Source: Elsinoe ampelina (lineage: Eukaryota). Taken from it: DNA of 64,000 nt. Shown one piece after another: positions 5,342 to 54,000 of this stretch (position 1 is the first letter of the stretch; each line of letters starts with the position of its first letter). Position numbers and translations under genes: made by a program. Under the pieces are notes generated by a model. It was not told where the DNA came from and searched no databases. It saw only the letters and a program-made list of their open reading frames with translations. Location: the NCBI GenBank assembly GCA_010093995.1, contig ML992512.1, forward strand, positions 281,736 to 345,735. Reading direction: 5' to 3'.

Positions 5342-5404
<63 letters not shown>

Positions 5405-39375: not shown

Positions 39376-42209
39376 TTAGTCTCTCTTGAAGCTTCCAGGA
39401 CTACTTGGTCCTGCGCTCAATCCTGCTGCCACCAGACTCGTGATCGTTCTTCCGCGACTCTTGTTCGTCTCCTTTCTGCTCAGCTGGCTCAACTCGCTCG
39501 GTCTTCTGTGGTGTTTCCTAGACGTGCTCGGGCTGGTGTTGGCATGTAACAGTGGACCCATGCCAACGGTGTCAGCAGCTGTGATTGTACTGCTACCGTC
39601 GCCAAGTGTGCGGCGCTCGTCCGTTGGTGCTTTGCTGATCGACATGCTGTTGCGACGGCCAGCGCGGCGGGCGGCTTCTTCGCTTTCCTTCTTGTGGAGT
39701 GCTTCTGATGGGAGGAGAATGGCACGGTCGAGCGCGTAGGGAAGACCACGGTGGCGACCACGCAGCATCATAGCGATGATGACGAGTTTGGAGAGGGTAC
39801 TGAACTCTGTGGAGAAGGAGGCGTTGATGCCTGGGTAGCCGAGGGAGAGACCGACTGTACCGTAGGCGGAGACGATTTCAAAGAGAATCGAGAACATGGT
39901 GAAGCCCTAGAGACGTCAGCGGATATTATCAACAGAATCAAAAATCTTCTTACGTAGTCGTTCGTGTTCTCGATGCGGTGACCCTCGATGATACTAATTA
40001 TGAACAGTCCCAAGAAAATGTACCACAAATCGAAAGAAAGCTGTCGACGCAAATGCTGGCCGACGTAGCTCTTGTCACTTTCCTCATCAACTTCTTCCTC
40101 TGTTCCCCATACACCTAAACTCTTTTCTTCGTATACGTTGGTTCGCCGAACACTGATGGCGATTGGGAATACGGAAATGTACATCATCACCAGGTACGAG
40201 ACTTGGATGGCTGGGTGAAGAGCGGATAAGTTCACTGCGGCGAACCCAGCAGTGCGGGTTGCGGTGGCCTGGAACCATCCAACAAGTACTCGAATGCCGG
40301 GCGCTAATGCAGTCACAGTCTCATCATTCAAGTCGAGGATGATGAAGAAAAGCAGATCGACACCGTTCAGGAGTACCAAAAGCCAGAATAGCCACCAGGT
40401 TGCTTTGGACGGGAAGAGAAGTGTGAAGCATCGACGTGGGTGGTCGAGAAGAAATCTAAGCTCCTCCCATAACGGTGATCCTGTTGGGACGACTTTGTGG
40501 CTGAGCCAGATGACAAAGCGTAGCATGCAAGGAAATCCTGTGTTTCCTATGACGATCAAGAAAGAACCAAGAAGTAGTGGCAATACTGCGCCTTGAAAAG
40601 AGATCATGCTGTCAGGCGTGAGGGTGTAACCAAGATCGTTAAACAAGGAAGCAGGAGTGAAAACTCCCCACCACGACCGGTTTTGTCCAGCGGCATCGAC
40701 GACAGGTCCCCACGTATTGCTGTAGACGATCCATGGATGTAAGATGACCATGCCGAGCATATGGAAACCGACATAGTAGCAGACCAGAATGATGGCCAGT
40801 GTCTTGAGTGATCGATACTCGATACCTCCAAGTTCTTCTCGCTGCTCCTCGGACAGATCGACAAATGCAGAATTTCGTCCGATCGTCGGTTGCCAGCTCA
40901 AGTATGGTGCAAAGTCATCGACATCCACGGCCTGACTTCGTGATCGGCTCAGAGTTCTGGGAGCGTCTCTGATGCGATGAAGCGTGTTTGCGAGCGCGGT
41001 GGATGATATCCTCCGCTTTGGCTTTGACAACCCGCTGAAGGGGCGAAGTGGATTAAATCTCGTCGAGTGAGCATCGGAATCGTCGTCCTTGATCCTTTCA
41101 GACCTATCTGGCACATCGAAAGCAATTCCCTTGCGAGGTCCGTTGGCATCCAACGTGGCCTTTTCCTCTTCATTAGCGGCTGTCGTGTTTCGTCGTACCG
41201 CCGGAGTAAAGGTATCGCGGGTCATGGCACGGTCGAGGTCATCGGCATTCTCGTCATCGCTATTGACCTCGCGCGGTACATCGCCACGGTCAAAGTCTCT
41301 TGGTCCGGGAATGCGAAGAGTGCCGTTTTCCTGCTTCCGTTGCTTTTCCAGAAAAGCGATATGATGATCCGGGCTTCGAGGTTCGGGTATTCTCTCGTCG
41401 TCCGCCTTCTGAGCATTCTTTTCAGCATCCTTCTCAGCTTGCTTAGCTTCATCGGCAAAGACGATATCCCTCCTGAGAAGTGGATTCCTTCCTAAAAAGG
41501 TTTCTTGTGGCGATCTTGGTGATGCTTCCTGGCTATCGGGCGAGTCAAACGCATTGACCGGCTTCTTCGTCCTAGGACTGACAATACTACTATCCTTGTC
41601 ACCGCTAACAGTGTGTGAATTCATGCCATTCGTTTTCGTGGTATTGTGTAGCACATGAATGTCCTTGCCGTTGACGCCATTTTCGAGGTGCGCTGCGTCT
41701 GTGAGAGTATCCTCCCTGGCCTGTGATCTTGTCCGGGACATTGTCCTTGTTCTCCTCATCCGAGCTGCTTCCTTGACGATTCCCTGGAACCGCTTCTCGA
41801 ACCAATAGAGCCGGATGAACACTACCACCGTGTTGATGAAGATGGGATTGCAAACGGCTGCTATGAGCATGATCGTGACTTGCTGGTATGTTTGCAGTTG
41901 GTTGACATCGATTGTGTTGAGCCCGCTTTGGGTTGCAGATCCGGCCGCGAAGAAGAGAGCATCGATGTATGGCATTAATTTCGAAGGGTATATTATGATG
42001 GAGCCGAGTATGGTCATGCCGATGAGATAGACATCTGCGCGGGTTAGTGCCTGTTGGTCTTACGGAATGTACTCCATACAGTGAACGGTGATAAAATTAA
42101 AATGTGGTCGGCCAGGTTTGAACGAGGTCGGTACCAGGCCCTTGAACCACTGCAGGATGTCCAGCAGCGGTTCGGCGAACATGATTCCTCTTGGCTCGGT
42201 GGAGGCCAT
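39376..42209 (-). CDS. TRK1: TRK-type potassium transporter
   Basis: ATQSGLNT, LGGIEYRSL, FNDLGYTL, RTAGF, SAYGTVGLSLG, RGRHRGLP. Introns 42079-42035 and 39953-39907. Confidence 0.94.
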
Positions 42210-43141
42210 GTTGAAGAAGCGGGAGAGATGTCGATTTTATAGCGGGAGGGGCGGGTCCCGGCGACCTCAGAGTGGTTCAGACGGGATAGCAAAAGAATCG
42301 CAAGGTGCGAATTGGCGGAAAGCAAGTCGGGGGCTATGAGGTTAGATTGACGACTTTGGACAGATCCAGCTGTCGCAACGACGGAGTGAGAAATAGATCG
42401 GGTAGACGGGGTATTTGCAAGTGTTATTGTATGTACGCGAAGTCGTGTATACCCATGATCAGGAGTTGCATGTCGACAACAATGGAGGCATCTTTTCGTC
42501 TTTATTCAGCTGTGGGCCGTCTTACGGAGTCCAGACAATTGTGATAGGGCGGGCTGAAGATTATTGGAAGGCTGCTGATATGCAGATTGCAGAGCTGCAG
42601 TGTCGTGGGAAGACGTGAGAGCACGCCAGGCTGAGAGTGGGATTTGATGATGCCGACCCAGGGTTTGGATCAAGGAGGAGATTCATCGCCCATTTGCCAA
42701 GGCAGAACCAAGGACCCCTGCCCGCGTGCGGCTGCACATGTCTTTGTTCGCCGCAGGAAAATAAAATAAAAATCGATGACGGTTTGGGCTGCATGTTCGA
42801 CGCACGTTCCTGCATGCGTTATGCACGCTTGCACAGACAAATACCTTATCTATTGGCACGTCCTTGCTTTCTAGGCATGGTCATCTTGCATATTTGTGAC
42901 GGTGATTCAGTCACACATGAAAACTTGGAATGTGGATGAACATTGCAGGTCTTCAACACGTGCTCATTTACTGCTGTCTACTGGTGGACAGTGTCCGGCT
43001 ACTTCTGATGTGCTGACGCGAGCAGGAAAGTATGTACAAGGTACCATCCATCAAAATCTTGACATGCAAGTCTTGCAATGCTCTTGATCACTAATAATTC
43101 TTACAATGCAGCTAGTGGATCCTCGGTCTTCCAGCGGTGAT

Positions 43142-43633
43142 CTAGAAGAGAGCAATTGGGTTGATGGCATTCGCTGGCCTCTGCTGAATAACATCCCAGT
43201 GTTCCTGGATACAGCTGCCGTTGAATCTGTAAATGTCCGCAACAGCAGAAGGTTGTGTGGCGTTCAGCTGGTCGATCCGGTAATGTACATATGCAAAGTT
43301 ACCATCAATTCCCTTGCTAATGACAGTATTATTGACCGCGTCGGGGCTAACAGTGGAGAAGAAGTCAATGACTGCTTGCCGGCCAGAGAGGGCGAATGGG
43401 TTGTGCTGGATGTAGTCTTCGGCGATGTAGGTGTTGAAGAAGTTGACACTGTAGTCCTTCTCAACTAGGAAGGCATTGACGAACTCGTTGAAGATCTTGC
43501 GTTGCTCTCGTGCCGATGCTGGTCGAGGTGGGCAGAACGCTGCTGCTGCTTTTGATGGAGAAGCATCTGCGAGGGCTGGTGCGGCGATGGAGAGGAGGGT
43601 GGCGACGCCAGCAAAGGCTATGGTGAGCTGCAT
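43142..43633 (-). CDS. Secreted SnoaL-like (NTF2-fold) protein
   Basis: Signal peptide; DYIQHNP..SGR and ADIYRF..IQEHWDV motifs. Confidence 0.82.
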   Translation of the reverse strand: MQLTIAFAGVATLLSIAAPALADASPSKAAAAFCPPRPASAREQRKIFNEFVNAFLVEKDYSVNFFNTYIAEDYIQHNPFALSGRQAVIDFFSTVSPDAVNNTVISKGIDGNFAYVHYRIDQLNATQPSAVADIYRFNGSCIQEHWDVIQQRPANAINPIALF

Positions 43634-44757
43634 GGTGTTGGAGGTCTGTTCAGGTGGATCGACGTGATGTAAGAATGGCAAAGGTGTGGCGTGTGTCAAG
43701 ACGTCTTATACTTGCCCATTAGATTGCCCTTGTACCTCACGCAGGGGACGGTTAGCGCCGATCAGGCTACATGCCTTTACCGATATTTGCTTTACGAGTA
43801 TTGCGTGTCCCGTCCTGCATATCAAATGTCATGTCACTGCAACATGTATTGCTTCATAAGCAGCGAGTGTCCAAGGAACTTCCAATGAGGGCAGGAAAGC
43901 CAAAGACGAGGCCGGCAGTTGACGTTCAAACACATCCACAAGCTGTGCCCCACCTGACGATCGACAACACCGACATATGAAACCTTACTCCAAAAAGTCA
44001 TGGCGCTGGACAGTCTCGTATGGGGCGACGAGATGAGCAGGTCACAAACAGCCCTAGAAGTCCCACTGGATTGGCCCTCACTCAAGCAATCTGCTGTCGT
44101 CGACTCTGTGGCTTGTGAAGCTCCACATGAAACCTACGCAATTCGACTGCCGTGCCGTTAGAGGCTTTTCGACAAAAGTCACTCGGACACTTGATACCAA
44201 TTGATTCAGGCACCACGATATCAACTCTTGAGTACTGAGATCACGGCCTAGCCATGGTTGCAATTGATCTCGAGGGCCCTCTTGACTTCCTCCGGCATCT
44301 CGTCGCGATAACGAAATGAGGTATGTATCATAAACATTATTCTGTTTTTCAATTGCGCACATGCTGGCAAGCACGTTCGAAGAATTGCTGGATAGGTGCA
44401 ATGGGAAAGAAGTATCGCCGTCGTCGACAATGCAGATTGCAATGCTGGACCTCGGGTGTGGGCGGAATGTCGGGTAGACGGGAACTCCGGCGCCCGGCTT
44501 ACGTGACGTCGTCCACTGGCGTCCCTCCACCCCCCCGTCCGCGACGCAGGGGTCCGGTCCACGCTAAGTCACCACTCCACCAAACCTTGGTCGTTTCTTT
44601 TCATTTTGCTTGGATCTTGTTCAGAATTGGCTGCTCTATCGCCTCGATGGCAAAAATTTGCAAAATTCCCATCGCTCGCTTGCCACGCGCCCGAAAAAAA
44701 TTTGCTCACCACATCAACTCTACAGCCTCATATACCACTCCGACGGGCCAAAAGGAA

Positions 44758-44889
44758 GGGCCCAACCGCGAATTGAACGCGGGACCTCTTGCAGGTATCT
44801 CCCAAAGCAAGAATCATACGCCTAGACTATATTTTTGGTCAGATAATGTCGCCGATAGTGATGGAAGAGAGGAACGAACCCATTGGGCC
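44758..44889 (-). tRNA. tRNA-Pro(TGG) split by a 53-nt GT-AG insert in the D-stem plus a 7-nt anticodon-loop intron
   Basis: Removing 44879-44827 and 44800-44794 gives GGCCCAA TG GTCT AGGCGT ATGAT T CTTGC TT TGG GT GCAAG AGGTC CCGCG TTCAATT CGCGG TTGGGCC C. This is a standard eukaryotic tRNA-Pro with fully paired acceptor, anticodon and T stems; TTTT lies just downstream. Confidence 0.88.
44827..44879 (-). other. Putative spliceosomal (U2-type) intron inside tRNA-Pro
   Basis: GTTCGT donor, pyrimidine tract, CTGAC branch point, TAG acceptor, 53 nt. Confidence 0.75.
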
Positions 44890-45103
44890 GACAGGAACAC
44901 TCCAGGGACTGGATTGCCACAATTTCGGAGCTCGGAATGAGCTTAGCTGACGGAGACGGAGCTCTATTAACAATATAATCAATTCTAGAACGCTGTCGGG
45001 TGTTTGCCACGCCTGAGCAGATTCATGTGCTCGGCCGTATTGGATACTACACGCCTCCTAATGGAAAGCAAGGCTCTTTGTCTCGTTGGATATAGTGCTG
45101 CCC

Positions 45104-45664
45104 TCAGCGGTATGTTCCATGCGTGTTGGACCTCTCCCATGGCCTTGTGCCGCCGCTCTCTACACCAAAAAGGCGCAGGTAGTCTTCCTTCTGGAACATA
45201 CTTGCACTGTCGACAGCATTTGGTTGCCCGAGCCTGACATCCGCCTTCCGCCCATCCATTCCCTCAAATAGAATACGAACAACCTCGTCGTGGCCTTTGA
45301 AAACCGCCCCTGCAAGGATACTTTGTCCACGATCATTCAGGACATTCGGGTCAGCGCCCTTCTGGAGCAGCAACCTGGTAGTCTCCACATGGCCATGATA
45401 TGCTGCCAGCATGAGCAACGTGTCGCCTTTTGAATTTGTCAGGTTTAGCGGTATGCCGGCGTCCAGGTACTGGCCAAGAGCGTCCGTGGAGCCTTCTCGA
45501 GCTAGATCGAACAACTTCCCCGCCAACTCAAGCGCTGCTGGAGGCAACTCGGAAGCGCTCCGTCGTCCTTGTGTCTGATCGGATGATGTCGATGTTTGAC
45601 TGGATTGACCAGGTGTGTCTCTTGGTGGCACTGTGCCATCTTCATTTGGAGCTCGAAGACCCAT
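45104..45664 (-). CDS. Small ankyrin-repeat protein
   Basis: KGDTLLMLAAYHGHVETTRLLLQKGADPNVLNDRGQSILAGAVFKGH. Confidence 0.88.
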   Translation of the reverse strand: MGLRAPNEDGTVPPRDTPGQSSQTSTSSDQTQGRRSASELPPAALELAGKLFDLAREGSTDALGQYLDAGIPLNLTNSKGDTLLMLAAYHGHVETTRLLLQKGADPNVLNDRGQSILAGAVFKGHDEVVRILFEGMDGRKADVRLGQPNAVDSASMFQKEDYLRLFGVESGGTRPWERSNTHGTYR

Positions 45665-45999
45665 ACTGTGACCTGGGTCTGGCAGGCTGAGCGTGTCGGC
45701 CTTCTCACTCTGGCTCCTGGATCCTCAATCAAATTGGATGAAACTGCGAAGTAGCGAGTGATTGTCGTTGCGAAAATTATTATTTGCTATGCGACATACG
45801 GAGGGTACTGCAAAGTGTAGGGGTCTTTCTGACGTCAGGGGCAAATGATAGTCCTCCATCTCCAGACACAGCAACACAAACACGAAAGCTCCGAGACCAA
45901 CTATTACATTCGACACGTTGGTAGGCTGGAGAATTGAACTTTAAGGGCCGAAGCTATTGGATAATGACACGCATGTCACCGGCTTTCCTGGGATGGTCC

Positions 46000-46860
46000 C
46001 TGGCAGCAAACTCCAGACCGCTCCTACCAGAGCCACAGTCGCAAGGTGCTGTGACTGGCTTGTTCTCGACGGCACCTGGTAGGATACTGCTGGAAAATGC
46101 TACCAGAGCCGCGGTCTCGAGGTACTCTCTCCTCCACAATGGTCCCTCGCAAGGAGGTACAGATCCTACCAGAGCCGCAAGCACAAAGTCACTGGCCCCA
46201 GCTTCTCCATGATGGTTCCTGGTAGGAAGCTCCTAAAAGATACTGCCAGAGCGGCAGTCATGAGGTGATGTCTCTAGCACCCTTGCAAGAGTGTCTGGTA
46301 GGAAGCTGCAGGAAGGTACTACCAGAGCCACGGCCACAAGTCTATCTCATCGACTCCTCCGCAACGGCCTCTTCGAGGAGGTACAGAACATCCTACCAGA
46401 GCCGCAGCCACAAGGCACTGTCACTGGCTTCTCAATGACGATCCCTGGCAGGCAGCTCTTGGAGAACCCTACCAGAGCTGCGGTCATAAGCCGTTCTCAG
46501 CGACCTCTCATAAGGAGGTACAAAAGGATCCTACCAGAGCCGCCGTCATAGGTCACTGTCATCGGCTTGTCTGTCATGGTCCTGGTAGGACCATCCAATA
46601 GATCCTACCAGAGGCGCAGTCACATTTTGACATCACTAGTTTCCCTACATCAATACCTGGTAGGATGCCACCGGAAGGTCCTACCAGAGCCGGTCTCACA
46701 AGTCACTACACATCACAGAATGGAGCGTCGTCCTACAGCATGTCGATTAGAGACCGTTCCGCAATGCTAGGGGATTTTGTACTACCAGACATGTATTGCC
46801 AGTAGGATAAGATACTACCAGACATGTACCGCCAGCAGGATTGAGGTAGTACTACCAGAC
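46000..46860. repeat. Degenerate tandem array: 10 units of ~75 nt anchored on CTACCAGAGCC, plus 3 shorter TACTACCAGAC units
   Basis: Core motif at 46024, 46100, 46166, 46243, 46319, 46393, 46469, 46531, 46605, 46681. Short units at 46782, 46815, 46852. Confidence 0.9.
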
Positions 46861-47227
46861 AGGTAAGAACACGCTTTGGTCTCACTCGCAGCGAGGCACT
46901 TCCACGTGTAGCAAGTTTTTACGCAGTAGCAGCAATTTCTTTATCTCGTAGCAAATCGCTTTCACTCGAAGCATGTTACCTCCGCTTGCTACCAAATCAC
47001 TCTCACTCGTAAAATCTGCTTTGTGGCAAATTACTCTTCTTCAATTCATTACGCTTATCCAGACACATTACCACCCCATCGTTCAATAAAATCGTTCATA
47101 ACCAGTCGATTCCACCCATCCAGAGAACCTCCCATATCCGAGCGTGTATATCACCTCTCACCTAGCCCATACCTTACAACCAAAGTTGCCGTGACCGATC
47201 CACAGCCCTTCCTCTCTCCAGCTCCGC

Positions 47228-49372
47228 TTACATCCCACCCAAACCCCCCTCCCTCCTCACCTCCCCGGCAAAATCCCTCAAATCCTGCACCACAACCTCC
47301 CCCCTCTCCCAAGCAGGCCACTTCACCTCCCTCCCCGTCTCATGCCGCCTCAACCAGCTCAACTCCCCCCACGCCGCCATCCAGATAGGCGGACATACTC
47401 CCACGCCCGATCCTCTTCCTTCCCGCTTGTCCCCTCTCGCTCTTCTCCCGCCCATCACCCTGTCCGTTCCTGCTTCGGACCTCCTCTCCTCCCCTTGCCG
47501 TGAATCTGTAGAGATGGGAGGTCGGAAAAAGCTCGCGCCCACGGGCACCTTGCTTCGTTCCTGCCAGAAGGGAGCAGAAGGGCTTGTCTCCCTTCTTGCG
47601 TTCCTCAGCCAGCGCAGGGGAGCCTCGGGGCCGGAGAGCCAGTAGAGCATTGTCCAAGTCAAAATATCGGAAGGGGTCCAGGGGTGGAAGAGATCCACCC
47701 GTTCTGGGTCCCTGAGGGGCTGGGAGGTGGGCTGGGTGGTGGGCTGGGAGATGGGTTGGGAGATGGGTTGGGATGGTTGAGTGAGCGGAGGAGATTGAGA
47801 CGCCATCTGGCCCGAGAACGAGGGAGGTTGAAGATGGCGAGGAGCTGGTGGTGATGCGGCGATGGGCGCTGAAGTGGGTGGTGGGTTGGAGGTTGGAGAC
47901 AAGAGGGCGTTGGGGTGGAGGGAGTCGTTTCTCTTCGTTTCGGGCTCTGCTTTTGCATCGTCTTTAATATTTGCGCTGCCGCTTGCCCGGACGCTTGCGG
48001 TTCCACTGCCACTACCTTGCGCGCTCGAAGAGACAGACGGTCTCGAGCTCGAAGGGATAGGCAGCAATGCTGTGGAAGAGTTCGAGGCCAGTCCGCCTGT
48101 TGGTATAGAGAGTCTCGCACTCCCTTGTGCGCTTGAGTGGGCTGAAAGTCGTGCGCTGGAAGATGCAGAGTTGCTTCCTGCCACGCTACCGAGGAGAGGT
48201 CGAGGAGGCAGTGCAGATAAGGACGGTTGGAGGGGAGCCGACGGCGCAGTCGGTGGGTTGATAAGATTCAACATGAATGCTAGTAGCCCTGTAGGCGAGT
48301 CGGAGAGAGCAAATGCCAGGGCGGAAGTGCTTAGTCCGGTGTTGTTGTCACTGGAGTTTAGCGGTATCGAGCCTGTGTTGGCGTCCGAGGAAGTCGGGAG
48401 CTCAAAGTCTGAGGGCACGTAGCCAAAGCTGAGGAAAGGGATGCTTGCGCCTGTCATCTGAGCGATTCGGTACTGTGTATATGCAAGTGGCGTATCGCGA
48501 ATGGTCGGTGCCGGCACGAGAGGATTGGTTGTGTATATCGCTTTGCACGCGGAAGAGTGATACGATATGGATCGGACGATGCGAAAGCCCCTGTACATGG
48601 TTAGTATAAATCTCGGGATGAAGCACATGATGACACATACCATCCACTACCATAGGCTACATACTCTTTGTAGCCCAACTTCTCCATCAGAGCTTGAAAT
48701 ACGATAGCAACATCCTCAATCCCAGCATCATGTCTTTGCAAAGGATCACCAAACCCAAATCCCGGAATCGACGGGCAAACTACATGGAAAGCCTGGGGGT
48801 GACTTTGCATCTGCGTGGGCGTCGACACTGGTTCGCAAAGCCATTCTATGATCCTCGCGACCTCGACAAAACTCGTTCCCCAATCATGAACAAACAACAG
48901 TGGTACGGCGTCTTTGAAGGTAGACCGCCGGTGGGCAAAGTGGACCCGCAATGTTTCTTGGGGTTGATTGGACATTACCCTCCGAGACCAGCGGAGGTTG
49001 GTGCGGTATTGTGGGAGCTGTCGGTTGAGATGCGCCTCCTGAGCGCGGAAATCGAATCCATCGAGCCTGGTGTCGTTATCAGTACGCTTGTGTTGCGTGA
49101 GGGAGTCCTGATTACCCACCAGAAGTCCAGCAATGGCTCAAGCTGTGCTTTCGTAACACCATGAGGGTCCTCATCCACGTCTTCGTCATCCGAGAGCTCT
49201 TTTGGCAATCTGGCCAGCTCGAGCTTCTTCCTGGTCAAGTCTAGGTACCGCTGCGAGACCTGCCGCATGTTAGTATCAGGTTGCTAAAATATTCTCCAGT
49301 GATACTCACATGCATGCGGTACTCCTCTATCCCTTCGTCTACATCGTGACCCGGCCCCGACGTAGATGTCAT
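47228..49372 (-). CDS. Microsomal epoxide hydrolase-like alpha/beta hydrolase, probably catalytically inactive
   Basis: EHN-like N-terminus (LELARLP, FDFRAQEAHLN), AFHVVCPSIPGFGF, ALSDSPTGLLA. Introns 49309-49260, 49119-49067, 48640-48591. Long Ser/Pro insert. Confidence 0.8.
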
Positions 49373-51058
49373 GTGTCAATTCTGGGCAGTAGTCATGCCT
49401 CGAGATCCTCTGCCAATCCCTATCATAGAGGTCCAATTACAGTACTGTGTTCCTCAAAGAGCCTGACTATAGTACAGTATAGTACAACGTAATGTAGTAT
49501 CGTATAGCAACCACAAAGCAACCAAACCAAACGACTGTCTTAGCGAACGACTGAGCGATTGATAGGTGAGCAGAAAAAGTTGATGCCTGACGGGAACGTT
49601 TATCAAGCACACCCACCTCTCTCTATGACACCTCTGCTCACGGGACCATCTTGGCACACACATATACACCAACCCACCTCGCAGCCCCAGGGTCCTCCAG
49701 CACCATTCCCCCTCCGATCCGTCGCCACAACCACGCCAGAACCAATGCCACAACCCTGCCTCCAGTCCGGCACGCAGATCAACCGGGCTCAAGCCCACGC
49801 GGCCTCTGCACAACAAGAGCCAATTGGAGGCTGGACCCGATACAGTTGGCATCCTGCAAAGCTCGTGCGTCGACAATCGCATCTGTCGAGGCAGGGTGCC
49901 GCGCGAGGCCGTCAGGAGCCCAGTGGAACGCAATAGACGAACGATGCGGCTGTGCAAAGTTCCTTACCGTGCCTGCCAAGGTGTCCGGAGGTCTAGCCCG
50001 GCGAAAAGATGAGGTCAAAGATCGTGCCTGCCGACACCAAAAACCGCGGCGGGGAGGAAGGATAGGGCTGGACCCTGCATGTGGGCCTGTGGCGGTGCAG
50101 GGGACGAGGTTCAGGGTCCCGTGCAGATCTATGCCTGCCTCGGGCGGCGAACTGTGTCGCTTGTGTCATCGGACCCGCGGCATGATGTCGTGGGAGGAAC
50201 ATCTTGGGCCGTTGCTGTTTTTGGACTCGGAGCCTCAGGGGATTGTTATTGGTTGTGAGTGGGAGAAAGGTAGAGATAGGCGATGTCGGAGTGGCCGGTG
50301 GGATTTTTGTTAGTGAGGGCAGATCTTCCTGGTGGTGATTCATTTTTCCGCGGGTGGAAGGGCATGATTGGGGTTGAGAAGATGCATCTTGATCGCATCA
50401 AGTGAAGCGAGGCCTATCCCGGCATGCCTGGTCTGTGTTGGACAGGTTTGTGACCATGGGCGAGCACGCGGTGTCGTACGCTGCCGCCAATCCCAGGCGA
50501 GGGAGGAGAACTAGCCAGTGTGATAGCACAGCATGCTCGGATATCGATCACTGACCGAACTGACGTGGATGAAGATCTCTGTATTGTTAATTATCCGTGT
50601 CTGGGCGCGGAAGGAGGTGGATAGGAGATGGACGGTGATAGGCGCTGCCTGAAGTCGCTCGATCACAAAGTCAAGGGTATGCAGCACGGGTTAGCCCACA
50701 CAACGGAAGGCAATGCCTACAAGTCTGCAGCGAACGTCTAGGATAGAGACCCAGCTACTTGTATACCCATCGTCGACGTCTGCTGCTCGCCGGACCACGC
50801 GAGCGGGATAGACGTGATGCACATACCGTCCTTCAATGCTATCCATCCACTAACTTCTGCCTGTCCTCACACCACACGCAGTACTCGTCCTCCCCTCTAT
50901 CGACCTCGATGCCCCTAGCTCCTCAACCTCGTTCTATTCAGAAACACTTTTACCTCCCCCAAATGCAGAATATGATATACAACAATGGTATCACTCCCCC
51001 TCCCTCGCAGTCCGATCGGCCGTAAAATATTCCCAAATATACACAAGAAACCCCTTCT

Positions 51059-54000
51059 CTACCTCCTATTAAAGTTCAAAAACCTCCCCTGCGCACAAAA
51101 TTAGCAATCATCCCCACCGCCATCATCTCGGATCAACTTACCCCTACGAACAAAATCACCAAATTACTCGCCACAAACGCAATCAAAATCCCCAAATCCC
51201 TCCAGCGATTCCCAAACTCATACCCCAACGGCTGATAAAACTGATCCCCCACCTTGTACGCACAGTACGCACACGCATCCGTCATGTTATCCTGCAAATA
51301 CCCCGCCCCACCCCTCTCGAAGAACGCACCCATGTACTCCCCACACATCTGGCCCATCGGCGCCATGAAGCGATTGAATTCCATCTCCGTGCACACCACC
51401 GGCCTGTCGTGGAGTTCCGTCACGACCATTCCTCCAATCAAGCGGGTGAGGGGATTGAGTTGGTACAACCACCTCCAGCCCACCGGCATTTGACCCTCGG
51501 GGATAGTGACGCCGCAGAACAGCGCAAAGATGATGAGCATGAACGGGTTGAGCAGCACGGCAATGTACGTGCTCGGCGTGAGGGCGGACACCATCTGCCC
51601 CAACGTCACGGAGAAGATTTCCGTGATGAGGACCATGAGGAATTGGTACCCTGCTCTGGAGCTGGAGGACTGGAAGCCGGGAATGTAGTACAAGGGGAGG
51701 AAAAACCCGACTGCGCACAGGATCGAGTACGGCATCTCGGCGAGGACCATGGAGATGGCGAACGCGAATTGCTTGTACGATTTGGACGCGGCTTCGCGGT
51801 AGTAGATGATGCGGGACATGTCGTATTTCGGCTCGACTTGGGCGAGGATGAGCGCGGGGAGGACGACGGTTTGGAAGATGACGAAGACGCGGAATTGGAG
51901 GGACGAGCGGGAGTCGTCGAGTTGGAGGAACATGAGACCGGTGAGGAGGGCGATGACGACGTGGTTGAAGAGACGGGTGAAGCCGTAGTTGGGGGAGCGC
52001 CAGAAGGCAAGTTGCGTGCGCCAGTTGACGACTCTGATTTGATACCAGAGGGGCGTGGCGTATTCCTTTTCGTCAATGTCGACCGGGATGGCGGAGCGTT
52101 CGGCTTTGATCTTGACGATTTCGTCTTGCACGGTCTTCAGGTCGTCGGAGGTGCGCCAGATGTCGCCCCAGTCGCGGTCGCCGATGCGAGGTGCTTGACC
52201 CGCTCCGATGGCGTCGAGCATCCATTCCGCTGGGTTAGCGTCGGGTGGGCACTCGGCACCGTGTCTGCTAAAGTACGAGCGAAGGCCGGCGGCGTCCTTG
52301 CCAATCTCGCCAAAGTAGACAGTCTCACCGCCTCTCTGAAGAAGCAAGAGACGATCGAAATTGTCAAAGACACTTGCGTTCGGCTGATGAATGGTGCAGA
52401 GAATAGCCTGGCCAGCTGCGGACAGCTTGCGGAGAAAACGGACAATGTTGAACGCGCTCTGGGAGTCAAGACCGGAGGTAGGCTCGTCGAGGAACAGCAG
52501 AAGCTCAGGCTTTGCCGCCAGCTCGACACCAATCGTAACACGCTTGCGCTGTTCCACGGCGAGACCAGAAGAAGGCCATCCAATAATGGCGTCGGCGATT
52601 TCCTCCATCTCGAGAAGAGAAATAATCTCCTCAACGTAGGCGTACTTCTCCTCCTGTGGGACCGTGAAGGGCTGCCGGAGATCTGCAGAGAAGCGGAGAG
52701 CCTCACGAACAGTCTGAGTCGCTTCATGCTGATCGAGCTGCTCTGCGTAGGCAGTACCTCTCTGAAAGGCCTTACCTGGTGCCTTGCCATCGACCAGAAC
52801 ATCACCGGAGATGACACCGATATTCTTGCGGGAAGCGAGCACGTCCAGCAGTGTGGTCTTGCCGGCACCAGAAGCGCCCATGAGAGCAGTGAGTTGACCT
52901 GGCTTGACGTACCCGTAGACATCATTCAACAGACGGCGAGTGCCGCCAGAGACGGGCACATCGTAGCAGAGCTTCTCCCAGGTGAGTACAGCCTTGGACT
53001 CGATCTGAACCATGGTGGTGGTTCGCTCCGCCTTATTGGTCTTGCGCCTCTCTCGCTTCTCAGCAAGATCAGCGTTGAGCTTCTTCTCCTCCTCGCTCTC
53101 TTTGGTGTACAGGGTGATCGTACGACCACCTGCGCCCCATCGGACGAACTCACCGAGCCAAGTGTTGGTACCCAAAAAGAACAGGGTAAGCGCGATAATG
53201 ATGCCAAAGTTGCGCCACAAATCACCAACGTTGTAGTTGAATGTCTGCGCAATGTAATCGCCACCATCGACATTCAGAGAGCCCGCGCGGCTACCACCAA
53301 GGGTGCAGACCTGATTCTGAATATTGTTATACTCTGGCCCAGAGGGAATGAGCGATTCCGCAGTGCAAGTCATGTCAAGACGACCGAACTCATTCTCCAT
53401 CAGTGCCGAGAAGCCAAGACCAAGGGGATTGATATAGTAGATCCATCGCAGCCAAACCTGACTTTGAGCCCACTGGATCAGATATCCAGATGTCAAAACC
53501 AGGAGAGTGATGATGAAAGCAGCGAATTTGATGGCGTAGTCAAAGTCCGGACACAAGCAGCCTACCGTCCTGAAGAACAGAGTCATGCCCAGGTAGCCCG
53601 AGATGATCAGCAAGACAAACGTGAAGAAAGCACCTGCGCTCAAGACCAATCCGCACATGAAGTAGACGATAACGCTGAAAACAAAAATCTGCGCAGAGGC
53701 GAAACAGATGTCGACACCTATTTGCGCGACCCACAGTGCCGAAGGACGGTAGAATGCATAAGCTCGATGCTTGTTGACAATGGGTCGACCCAACATGGTA
53801 GACCCAAGCTCACCGAAAGCGGTAAAGGCGTTGAAGAGCAGGGAGATGAAGAGCAGACCACCACGGATGAAAGCACCGGCTGTGGTTTCGGGGACTTTGT
53901 ACCAGACAGTACCAAGGACGATGGCGATGACAATAGAGGTGATCCAGGAGACGGTGAGGGAGAAGCGATCCTGCCACTTGAGAGTGAATTGCCGCTTCAT

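What the first reader, a model, noticed from the sequence alone, without database searches (positions are those of the whole stretch)
46000..46691. Non-coding ~75-nt-period array with fixed-spacing inverted motif CTGGTAG-N17-CTACCAG
Seen: ten CTACCAGAGCC-type cores at spacings 76, 66, 77, 76, 74, 76, 62, 74, 76, mostly not multiples of 3, so not a protein repeat. Seven cores are preceded by the inverted copy CTGG(T/C)AG (46000, 46076, 46219, 46295, 46445, 46582, 46657) exactly 24 nt upstream (23 once). The other three are preceded by AGGAGGTACA, giving unit order AABAABABAA. Cores and spacing are kept while the intervening sequence has diverged strongly. The pairs can form stems of up to 9 bp (CTGGTAGGA/TCCTACCAG). 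Inference: selection on motif and geometry suggests an array of dimeric protein-binding or recombination sites, transposon subterminal repeats, or a multi-hairpin ncRNA. It lies upstream of the ankyrin gene and split tRNA.
Basis: partly seen in the sequence, partly recalled or inferred. Interest (0 to 1): 0.72.

Follow-up and report, generated by a model that had tools for sequence, protein, structure and literature searches.

The report
Conserved-word repeat array between fungal genes
Between two ordinary genes of an Elsinoe fungus lies a row of about ten old 75-base repeats that have drifted almost beyond recognition except for one short word, kept in both orientations about twenty times, which most likely marks docking sites for an unknown sequence-reading factor.

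Summary
Ten CTACCAGAG-type cores lie at the stated spacings, seven inverted CTGGYAG arms lie 24 (once 23) nt upstream, and three AGGAGGTACA words give the order AABAABABAA. The array runs further than reported: three more CTACCAGAC cores sit in a 33-nt repeat at 46779-46865.

- **Word kept, rest drifted.** The 11-nt core is 92% identical between units. The rest of the unit is 57% identical, close to shuffled sequence.
- **No RNA-structure signal.** The arm-core stems show no compensatory change; pairing equals the shuffle control.
- **No known family.** Rfam, ARAGORN, Pfam and two protein searches found nothing in the array, and no transposase lies nearby.
- **Setting.** The array fills the gap between an epoxide-hydrolase-like gene and a conserved small ankyrin gene, both on the minus strand.
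- **Transcription.** One probably RNA-derived contig runs through the whole array.

Best reading (0.4): a cluster of about 20 sites for an unidentified factor that reads (T)CCTACCAG. Rivals are a recombination-driven minisatellite and an RNA-level element. Conservation in relatives could not be tested.

The parts
45962..46023 (+). decayed partial unit U0 (body plus arm CTGGCAG at 46000); its expected core is no longer recognisable
   Evidence: read by eye; D2 copy 45982-46055 at 62%
46000..46757 (+). main array: ten units of 62-77 nt, order AABAABABAA by the element before each core
46024..46034 (+). core 1 CTACCAGAGCC
46100..46110 (+). core 2 CTACCAGAGCC
46166..46176 (+). core 3 CTACCAGAGCC
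46243..46253 (+). core 4, variant CTGCCAGAGCG
46319..46329 (+). core 5 CTACCAGAGCC
46393..46403 (+). core 6 CTACCAGAGCC
46469..46479 (+). core 7 CTACCAGAGCT
46531..46541 (+). core 8 CTACCAGAGCC
46605..46615 (+). core 9 CTACCAGAGGC
46681..46691 (+). core 10 CTACCAGAGCC
46000..46006 (-). inverted word (arm) CTGGCAG, variant
46076..46084 (-). inverted word CTGGTAGGA
46219..46227 (-). inverted word CTGGTAGGA
46295..46303 (-). inverted word CTGGTAGGA
46445..46451 (-). inverted word CTGGCAG, variant
46582..46590 (-). inverted word CTGGTAGGA (23-nt offset; 9-bp stem)
46657..46665 (-). inverted word CTGGTAGGA (9 bp plus one G-U)
46152..46161 (+). B-unit word AGGAGGTACA
46376..46385 (+). B-unit word AGGAGGTACA
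46513..46522 (+). B-unit word AGGAGGTACA
46779..46865 (+). short derivative repeat (period 33, 2.5 copies) with three CTACCAGAC cores at 46782, 46815, 46852
45104..45664 (-). context: conserved small ankyrin-repeat gene downstream of the array (ATG 45664; TGACGTCA at 45829-45836 and an AT-rich block at about 45772-45785 upstream)
47228..49137 (-). context: epoxide-hydrolase-like gene upstream of the array; one contig of run X4 ends at 46980
44758..44889 (-). context: tRNA-Pro(UGG) split by a 53-nt GT-AG segment (44827-44879) and a 7-nt anticodon-loop intron

Best explanation
The array is an old tandem repeat. It looks like a three-unit higher-order repeat (A-A-B, about 220 nt) copied about three times. 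What has been kept is not the repeat but one short word, (T)CCTACCAG(AGCC), reverse complement CTGGTAGG(A). This word is present about 20 times in 870 bp in both orientations. A second word, AGGAGGTACA, sits in the three B units.

I read the array as a same-word cluster of docking sites for an unidentified sequence-specific factor. The factor most likely reads double-stranded DNA, because both orientations are kept equally well and no base-pair covariation is seen. The array fills the space between the 3' end of an epoxide-hydrolase-like gene and the promoter of a conserved small ankyrin gene. Its likely job is therefore to regulate or shield that promoter, as an upstream regulatory array or a boundary between two same-direction genes.

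Shown: the words, their numbers, their excess conservation, the lack of coding or known-RNA signal, and the gene context. Inferred: that a factor binds, that it reads DNA, and what binding does.
For: - The core is 0.92 identical between units against 0.57 for the rest. The 11 core columns carry 4 mismatches in 99 cells, and 0 of 20000 simulations gave a run that clean (U1-U9, U10 left out).
- Unit bodies are 0.48-0.70 identical against 0.52 +/- 0.05 for shuffled bodies, so the units are nearly saturated with change while the word survives.
- The inverted arms are the same word. CTGGTAGGA is exact in 5 of 7 arms and TCCTACCAG in 6 of 10 cores (contexts). The 9-mer does not occur elsewhere in the window.
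- The only variable place in the 7-mer is position 5 (T/C), and it varies independently in arm and core. That pattern fits word recognition better than pairing.
- There are 17 exact 7-mers in the array against background level outside it, and this is the top word cluster of the window.
- The array is not coding. There are 18 stops on the + strand and 30 on the - strand, no open frame runs through it, 13 array ORFs have no Pfam family, and two protein searches found nothing.
- It matches no known RNA family.
- It lies 340-1200 bp upstream of the ankyrin ATG.
In this array 16 of 17 exact copies are followed by G or T.
Against: - No binding factor is known, and I found no paper that treats the word as a motif. 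The listings showed no fungal paper, and only the listings were seen.
- Conservation in sister species could not be tested.
- The conserved AGAGCC extension occurs only in the + oriented copies, which a symmetric DNA site does not explain.
- The 24-nt centre-to-centre offset of the inverted words is long for a dimer.
- The conservation falls off gradually on the 3' side of the core, which could also reflect short conversion tracts.
- The region appears to be transcribed, so an RNA-level reading is open.
- If the core is frozen by a protein, missing covariation does not exclude pairing.
Confidence: 0.4

Rival explanations
1. It is a self-maintaining minisatellite with no role for the organism. 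The core is where recombination or gene conversion starts, so short conversion tracts keep re-copying the core and its immediate flank while the rest of each unit drifts.
For: Tandem structure with higher-order spacing of 219, 150 and 212 nt. Conservation is highest at the core and falls off gradually into GCAGTCACAAGG. The edge unit U0 has lost its core (by eye). A contig of run X3 carries a 46-nt stretch that is 96% like unit 6, flanked by sequence that does not lie on the window, a mosaic that conversion could make.
Against: Conversion tracts would not be expected to stop so sharply as to leave bodies near random. The inverted arms, 24 nt away and in the opposite orientation, are kept as well. 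A third word is kept in the B units.
Confidence: 0.25
2. It is an RNA-level element. The array is transcribed on the minus strand, either as read-through from the hydrolase gene or as a long leader of the ankyrin gene. Its CUGGUAGG words, alone or as arm-core hairpins, are read on the nascent RNA. They could act as a GUA-type termination or boundary signal like the Seb1/Nrd1 sites of yeasts, as decoy 5'-splice-site-like words, or as a protein sponge.
For: X3 contig record 5 lies on 44880-47206 with 0 differences, lacks the 53-nt GT-AG segment of the minus-strand tRNA gene, and has a 4-fold depth step to the next contig, so it is probably RNA and spans the whole array. An X4 contig of the hydrolase gene ends at 46980, about 115 nt before the first word. 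GUAG occurs 15 times on the minus-strand RNA against 3.4 +/- 3.1 in background windows. GUAG and UGUA are the top Seb1 tetramers and cluster downstream of poly(A) sites in S. pombe (PMC4949328, passages read; PMC5382271, passages). Five of 7 hairpins fold at -10.6 to -16.6 kcal/mol, with at most 6 of 200 shuffles as good.
Against: The strict (A/U)GUA(A/G) motif is not enriched: 4 against 2.5 +/- 2.1. An 11-nt invariant block is far more than a 4-nt motif needs. No covariation: 0 of 10 pairs change on both sides, and 82.9% of cells pair against 82.8% in shuffles. Two of 7 hairpins are no better than shuffles. The whole-array fold uses long-range arm pairings, not the local hairpins. GUAG is also enriched on the + strand (12). 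The strand of the RNA is not shown, and all runs are contigs.
Confidence: 0.15
3. It is the remnant of a transposon end, an array of subterminal transposase-binding repeats in direct and inverted orientation.
For: Short words in both orientations at high density resemble the subterminal regions of En/Spm- or Ac-type elements (recalled, not tested). A look-alike unit exists elsewhere in the organism (X3 record 6).
Against: All 11 inverted-repeat pairs found lie inside the array, so there are no terminal inverted repeats. No transposase lies within about 8 kb: the neighbours are TAFII28-like, TrkH, SnoaL-like, ankyrin, epoxide-hydrolase-like and a PDR-type ABC transporter. No other copy in 64 kb. 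The words sit inside a tandem repeat of longer units.
Confidence: 0.05
4. It is a decayed protein-coding repeat, a dead gene with 25-residue repeats.
For: The + strand has fewer stops than shuffles (18 against 26 +/- 4). Units translated in the LPEPQ frame look alike.
Against: Unit lengths are mostly not multiples of 3. All six frames are closed. No Pfam family in 13 array ORFs. 0 hits at E<=10 for the + ORF and 0 hits among 1.84 billion representatives for the - ORF.
Confidence: 0.03

Closest known systems
   Same: Many copies of one short word at high density in a few hundred bp of non-coding DNA between genes. Word kept, spacer free.
   Different: No factor is known. Here the sites sit in a recognisable old tandem repeat with a near-constant 76-nt period, and 7 sites are paired in inverted orientation at 24 nt.
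Minisatellites with a shared conserved core (Jeffreys-type human minisatellites; recalled)
   Same: Tandem units of tens of bases with a short core that is far better kept than the rest. The core was proposed as a recombination signal.
   Different: In those arrays, units within one locus are usually similar and the core is shared between loci. Here units within one locus are near random outside the core. Length polymorphism was not tested.
Seb1/Nrd1 GUA-motif clusters downstream of poly(A) sites in yeasts (PMC4949328 and PMC5382271, passages read)
   Same: Repeated GUAG-containing words just downstream of a gene's apparent 3' end and ahead of the next same-strand gene. GUAG is 15 against 3.4 in background.
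   Different: The kept word is 9-11 nt, not 4-5. The preferred A/U before GUA is G here, and the strict motif is not enriched. Nothing is known about this pathway in Elsinoe.
Repeat-built non-coding RNAs with conserved short cores and free spacers (Xist A-repeat, NORAD, S. pombe meiRNA with many DSR words; recalled)
   Same: Diverged repeat units keep a short motif and a local hairpin. The region is probably transcribed.
   Different: No covariation, the strand is unknown, no defined transcript ends, and no reader protein.
Promoter tandem repeats that multiply factor sites in fungal pathogens (for example TR34/TR46 of Aspergillus fumigatus cyp51A; recalled)
   Same: A tandem duplication upstream of a gene that multiplies binding sites.
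   Different: Those are recent, near-identical duplications of 30-130 bp. This array is ancient and diverged, with about 20 sites.

Membership tests
Known RNA families (tRNA, snoRNA, snRNA, SINE-like; Rfam 15) | match to a covariance model, or a tRNA cloverleaf | tested here: not met
   cmscan of 40000-52000 at E<=10 gave 3 weak matches, none in the array. ARAGORN found 0 genes in the window.
Protein-coding repeat | open reading frame through the units, with unit length a multiple of 3 | tested here: not met
   Unit lengths are 76, 66, 77, 76, 74, 76, 62, 74, 76. Stops are 4, 9, 5 in the + frames and 6, 11, 13 in the - frames.
Protein-coding repeat | similarity to any protein family or predicted protein | tested here: not met
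   Pfam: none for 13 array ORFs (best E 0.098, below cut-off). No hit for the two ORFs searched.
Structured hairpin RNA array | base pairs supported by compensatory changes | tested here: not met
   0 of 10 pairs change on both sides. 82.9% of cells pair against a shuffle mean of 82.8% (327 of 500 shuffles as high). Power is low: 7 sequences and 6 invariant pairs.
Structured hairpin RNA array | stable local fold beyond composition | tested here: inconclusive
   5 of 7 hairpins have z -2.1 to -4.3 and 2 of 7 are no better than shuffles. The whole array has z -6.4 (+) and -5.1 (-), but the fold uses long-range pairs.
Structured hairpin RNA array | transcribed, with a defined strand and ends | tested here: inconclusive
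   One probably RNA-derived contig (X3 record 5) spans the array. Strand and ends cannot be read from contigs.
Transposon subterminal repeats | terminal inverted repeats, a transposase or other copies of the element | tested here: not met
   No inverted repeats outside the array, no transposase within about 8 kb, no other copy in the window. The whole genome could not be searched.
Minisatellite | tandem units of about 10-100 bp | tested here: met
   Ten units of 62-77 nt plus a 33-nt derivative.
Minisatellite | copy-number or unit-order polymorphism between individuals | not testable with these tools
   No contig of the other strains or species lies on 45741-46979, which says nothing either way.
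Same-word binding-site cluster | one word far above chance and better kept than its surroundings | tested here: met
Same-word binding-site cluster | a factor that binds the word | not testable with these tools
The listings showed no paper on the word as a motif.
Seb1/Nrd1-type GUA termination element | (A/U)GUA(A/G) words enriched on the sense strand just downstream of the cleavage site | tested here: inconclusive
   GUAG is 15 against 3.4 +/- 3.1, but the strict motif is 4 against 2.5 +/- 2.1. The cleavage site is only inferred from a contig end at 46980.

The most novel reading that the evidence does not exclude
CTGGTAGK is a genome-wide address word of this fungus, read by a dedicated factor on nascent RNA, by analogy with the DSR words read by Mmi1 or the GUA words read by Seb1 in fission yeast. 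On this reading the array is a non-coding hub that either stops read-through from the hydrolase gene or soaks up the factor.
Probability: 0.12. Interest if true: 0.8.

Novelty: new variant of a known kind. Interest (0 to 1): 0.5.

Why it matters
If the word is a real docking site, this array is a compact natural reagent, with about 20 sites in 870 bp, for fishing out an unknown sequence-specific factor of a crop-pathogen genus. Together with the reported second cluster of the same word, it would point to a regulatory code not yet described in Dothideomycetes. It also lies on what looks like a long Pol II transcript that carries a tRNA gene with an mRNA-type intron, so it may bear on how such tRNA genes are expressed. 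If instead it is a conversion-driven minisatellite, it is a clean example of a core surviving near-complete decay of its units.

Tried and rejected
- **Whole-genome search for the word.** No genome is held for this window.
- **Sequencing runs.** No holder is on record as RNA.
- **Reads over the array in other runs.** No contig of X4, X8 or X10 lies on 45741-46979. This is no evidence on presence or expression there.
- **Metagenome scan for two cores 62-78 nt apart.** None has blastn similarity to the array at E<=1e-3. The multi-hit loci are an unrelated 12-nt repeat.
- **Earlier notes of this scan.** Nothing near the place, and no look-alike stretch by sequence or among relatives.
- **Literature.** The 7-mers occur in 14019 papers and the longer words in 65. 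The 25 and 15 titles listed are primers and unrelated topics. 'Elsinoe' with 'minisatellite' gave 1 unrelated paper. Only the listings were seen.
- **tRNA-derived origin of the 76-nt period.** Considered because of the unit length and the odd tRNA genes of this genome. Rejected: no cloverleaf and no Rfam match.
- **Mini-introns (CTG|GTAGGA...CTACCAG|).** Considered and rejected. The segment would be only 28 nt, and the X3 contig shows no joint in the array.
- **Loose ends from the laid contigs.** Three 30-letter loose ends were looked for in the window and not found.
- **Not used.** Complex prediction, structure prediction and the protein atlas: no protein is at issue.

Full report
**What is there**

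The window is eukaryotic. No prokaryote genome is held for it. The small ankyrin protein next to the finding has its best named relatives in Elsinoe batatas (86%), E. fawcettii (79%), Sphaceloma murrayae (66%) and Myriangium duriaei (62%). Earlier notes of this scan call the genome Elsinoe ampelina (unchecked).

- **Cores.** Nine exact CTACCAGAG and one CTGCCAGAG lie on the + strand at 46024-46681, with spacings of 76, 66, 77, 76, 74, 76, 62, 74 and 76 nt.
- **Inverted arms.** CTGGYAG-N15-19-CTRCCAG matches seven times, and none of 100 shuffles gave any match.
- **B-unit word.** AGGAGGTACA occurs three times, only here.

The array is longer than reported.
- A 33-nt repeat at 46779-46865 carries three more CTACCAGAC cores.
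- By eye its unit looks like a shortened A unit.
- A decayed partial unit precedes the array at about 45962.

In all, the exact 7-mer occurs 17 times between 46024 and 46852. It occurs 7 times in the other ~63 kb, which is the median for 7-mers there. No other non-trivial 7-mer reaches more than 7 copies in any 900-bp stretch of the window.

**Is the word kept beyond chance?**

Yes.
- I aligned units U1-U9, leaving out U10 because its tail is not a full unit. There are 163 mismatches to consensus in 656 cells (25%).
- The 11 core columns have only 4 mismatches in 99 cells. None of 20000 simulations gave an 11-column run that clean (simulated mean 15.8, minimum 6).
- Mean pairwise identity is 0.92 in the core and 0.57 elsewhere.
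- With the core removed, unit bodies align at 0.48-0.70 identity, against 0.52 +/- 0.05 (maximum 0.66) for shuffled bodies.

The units are therefore close to saturation, yet the word is intact.

The inverted arms are the same word.
- CTGGTAGGA is exact in 5 of 7 arms, and its complement TCCTACCAG in 6 of 10 cores.
- The 9-mer occurs nowhere else in the window.
- The only variable place in the 7-mer is position 5 (T/C), in 2 arms and 1 core.
- The three B units share the exact 10-mer AGGAGGTACA, although their bodies are 0.62-0.70 identical.

One caveat applies. I cut the units at the core, which favours the core in the alignment, but the effect is far too large to be explained that way.

**Geometry**

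The arm-core offset is 24 nt in six units and 23 nt in one. However, whole A-type units are also 74-77 nt, so the offset is no better kept than unit length as a whole. It may be inherited rather than selected separately.

That A units kept their length despite near-saturated substitution is itself notable. I could not calibrate this against an indel rate for this genome.

The spacings of 219, 150 and 212 nt between longer copies, together with the order AABAABABAA, fit an old three-unit higher-order repeat with one unit lost.

**What it is not**

- **Not coding.**
  - Stops number 4, 9, 5 in the + frames and 6, 11, 13 in the - frames.
  - No Pfam family was found for 13 array ORFs.
  - The 99-residue + ORF had no hit at E<=10.
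  - The 92-residue - ORF had no hit among 1.84 billion representatives.
- **Not a known RNA.** Rfam at E<=10 over 12 kb gave nothing in the array, and ARAGORN found nothing.
- **Not visibly a transposon end.**
  - All 11 inverted-repeat pairs lie inside the array.
  - There is no other copy in the window.
  - The neighbours are ordinary genes: TAFII28-like, TrkH, SnoaL-like, ankyrin, epoxide-hydrolase-like and a PDR-type ABC transporter.

**Hairpins**

Taken alone, 5 of 7 arm-core segments fold as the predicted hairpin, at -10.6 to -16.6 kcal/mol, with at most 6 of 200 shuffles as good. The two with CTGGCAG arms are no better than shuffles.

The whole array folds better than shuffles on both strands (z -6.4 and -5.1, 20 shuffles each), but through long-range arm pairings.

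On the seven-sequence alignment, 0 of 10 pairs change on both sides. The share of paired cells (82.9%) equals the shuffle mean (82.8%). Pairing potential is thus fully explained by both words being kept, and there is no independent sign of selection for structure. Power is low, and a core frozen for another reason would hide covariation.

**Setting and transcription**

On the minus strand the order is:
1. epoxide-hydrolase-like gene (49137 to 47228; EHN domain 2.1e-14);
2. the array (46865 to 46000);
3. ankyrin gene (ATG 45664, stop 45104; Ank 1.8e-14);
4. a tRNA gene.

Upstream of the ankyrin ATG lie TGACGTCA (45829-45836) and an AT-rich block (about 45772-45785). The array therefore sits 340-1200 bp upstream of that gene.

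All laid runs are Logan contigs.
- **X3 record 5** (2568 nt, depth 35) lies on 44880-47206 with no differences. It skips 44827-44879, a 53-nt GT..AG segment on the minus strand.
- **X3 record 7**, the next contig, has depth 147.
- Precise removal of this segment and the four-fold depth step make X3 probably RNA. If so, the whole array is present in RNA that is contiguous with a minus-strand spliced transcript.
- The strand over the array, and whether this is one molecule, cannot be told from contigs.
- **X4 record 11** covers the hydrolase gene and ends at 46980.

A further X3 contig (record 6, depth 11.5) matches only 46387-46432, with 2 differences. It continues into sequence that does not lie on the window and that includes CCCTGGTAGGAGG. 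At least one look-alike unit therefore exists elsewhere in the organism. Its flanks are not in the window.

**How it most likely works**

The same word is kept in both orientations, without covariation, in non-coding DNA upstream of a promoter. The simplest reading is a cluster of about 20 sites for a factor that reads double-stranded DNA, acting on the ankyrin promoter or as a boundary between two same-direction genes (confidence 0.4).

Against this reading:
- the AGAGCC extension is strand-specific;
- the offset between inverted words is long;
- no factor is known, and no paper listed treats the word as a motif.

Here 16 of 17 exact copies are followed by G or T. This is a lead, not evidence.

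**Rivals**

- **Conversion-driven minisatellite whose core starts recombination (0.25).** It fits the gradient of conservation next to the core and the mosaic X3 contig. It fits poorly the equally kept inverted arms and the B word.
- **RNA-level element (0.15).**
  - On the minus-strand RNA the array would present 15 GUAG against 3.4 +/- 3.1 in background windows, starting about 115 nt after the apparent hydrolase 3' end.
  - GUAG and UGUA are the top Seb1 tetramers and cluster downstream of poly(A) sites in fission yeast (PMC4949328 and PMC5382271, passages read).
  - But the strict (A/U)GUA(A/G) motif is not enriched (4 against 2.5 +/- 2.1), GUAG is also high on the + strand (12), and a 4-nt motif does not explain an 11-nt invariant block.
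- **Transposon remnant (0.05)** and **dead coding repeat (0.03)** are unlikely for the reasons given above.

**What stays open**

I did not read the supplements of the Seb1 papers (Table S4, k-mers), which might refine the motif comparison.

Noticed in passing
window 44758-44889 (minus strand): tRNA-Pro(UGG) that ARAGORN finds only after the 53-nt GT..AG segment 44827-44879 (GTTCGT...CTGAC...TAG, after tRNA position 10) is taken out. It also has a 7-nt anticodon-loop intron. Contigs of X3 and X10 lack exactly these 53 nt, and the X3 contig runs on through the ankyrin gene and the array. The tRNA may therefore be made from a long Pol II transcript. This matches earlier notes on other tRNA genes of this genome.
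   Followed up: partly
window 44873-45740 against 46980-48200: Contigs of X4 and X8 differ from the window at 7 of 560, 1 of 170, 13 of 181 and 18 of 734 letters over the ankyrin gene. They stop fitting at 45740, as does an X10 contig, with a shared loose end that is not in the window. X4 is identical over 1221 nt of the hydrolase gene. So a sharply more divergent block starts in the ankyrin gene and points towards the array. A paralogue was not excluded.
   Followed up: partly
metagenome loci L055 (164-400), L098, L033, L018, L071, L022, L096, L115, L069, L001: Strict 12-nt tandem arrays whose units are either CTACCAGAGCAC-like or CTGGTAGAGCAC-like in irregular order, so the unit centre flips between ACC and GGT. 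They are unrelated to the fungal array.
   Followed up: no
window 5342-5403: An uninterrupted run of 62 G.
   Followed up: no
window 47717-47773: A 12-nt repeat (4.8 copies, GGGCTGGGAGAT) inside the hydrolase-gene ORF. The X10 contig lacks 12 nt at 47745, so repeat number differs between relatives.
   Followed up: no
window 46870-47020: By eye, a loose repeat of TCACTCG-N-AGCA / GTAGCA words in the stretch after the hydrolase gene, next to the array.
   Followed up: no
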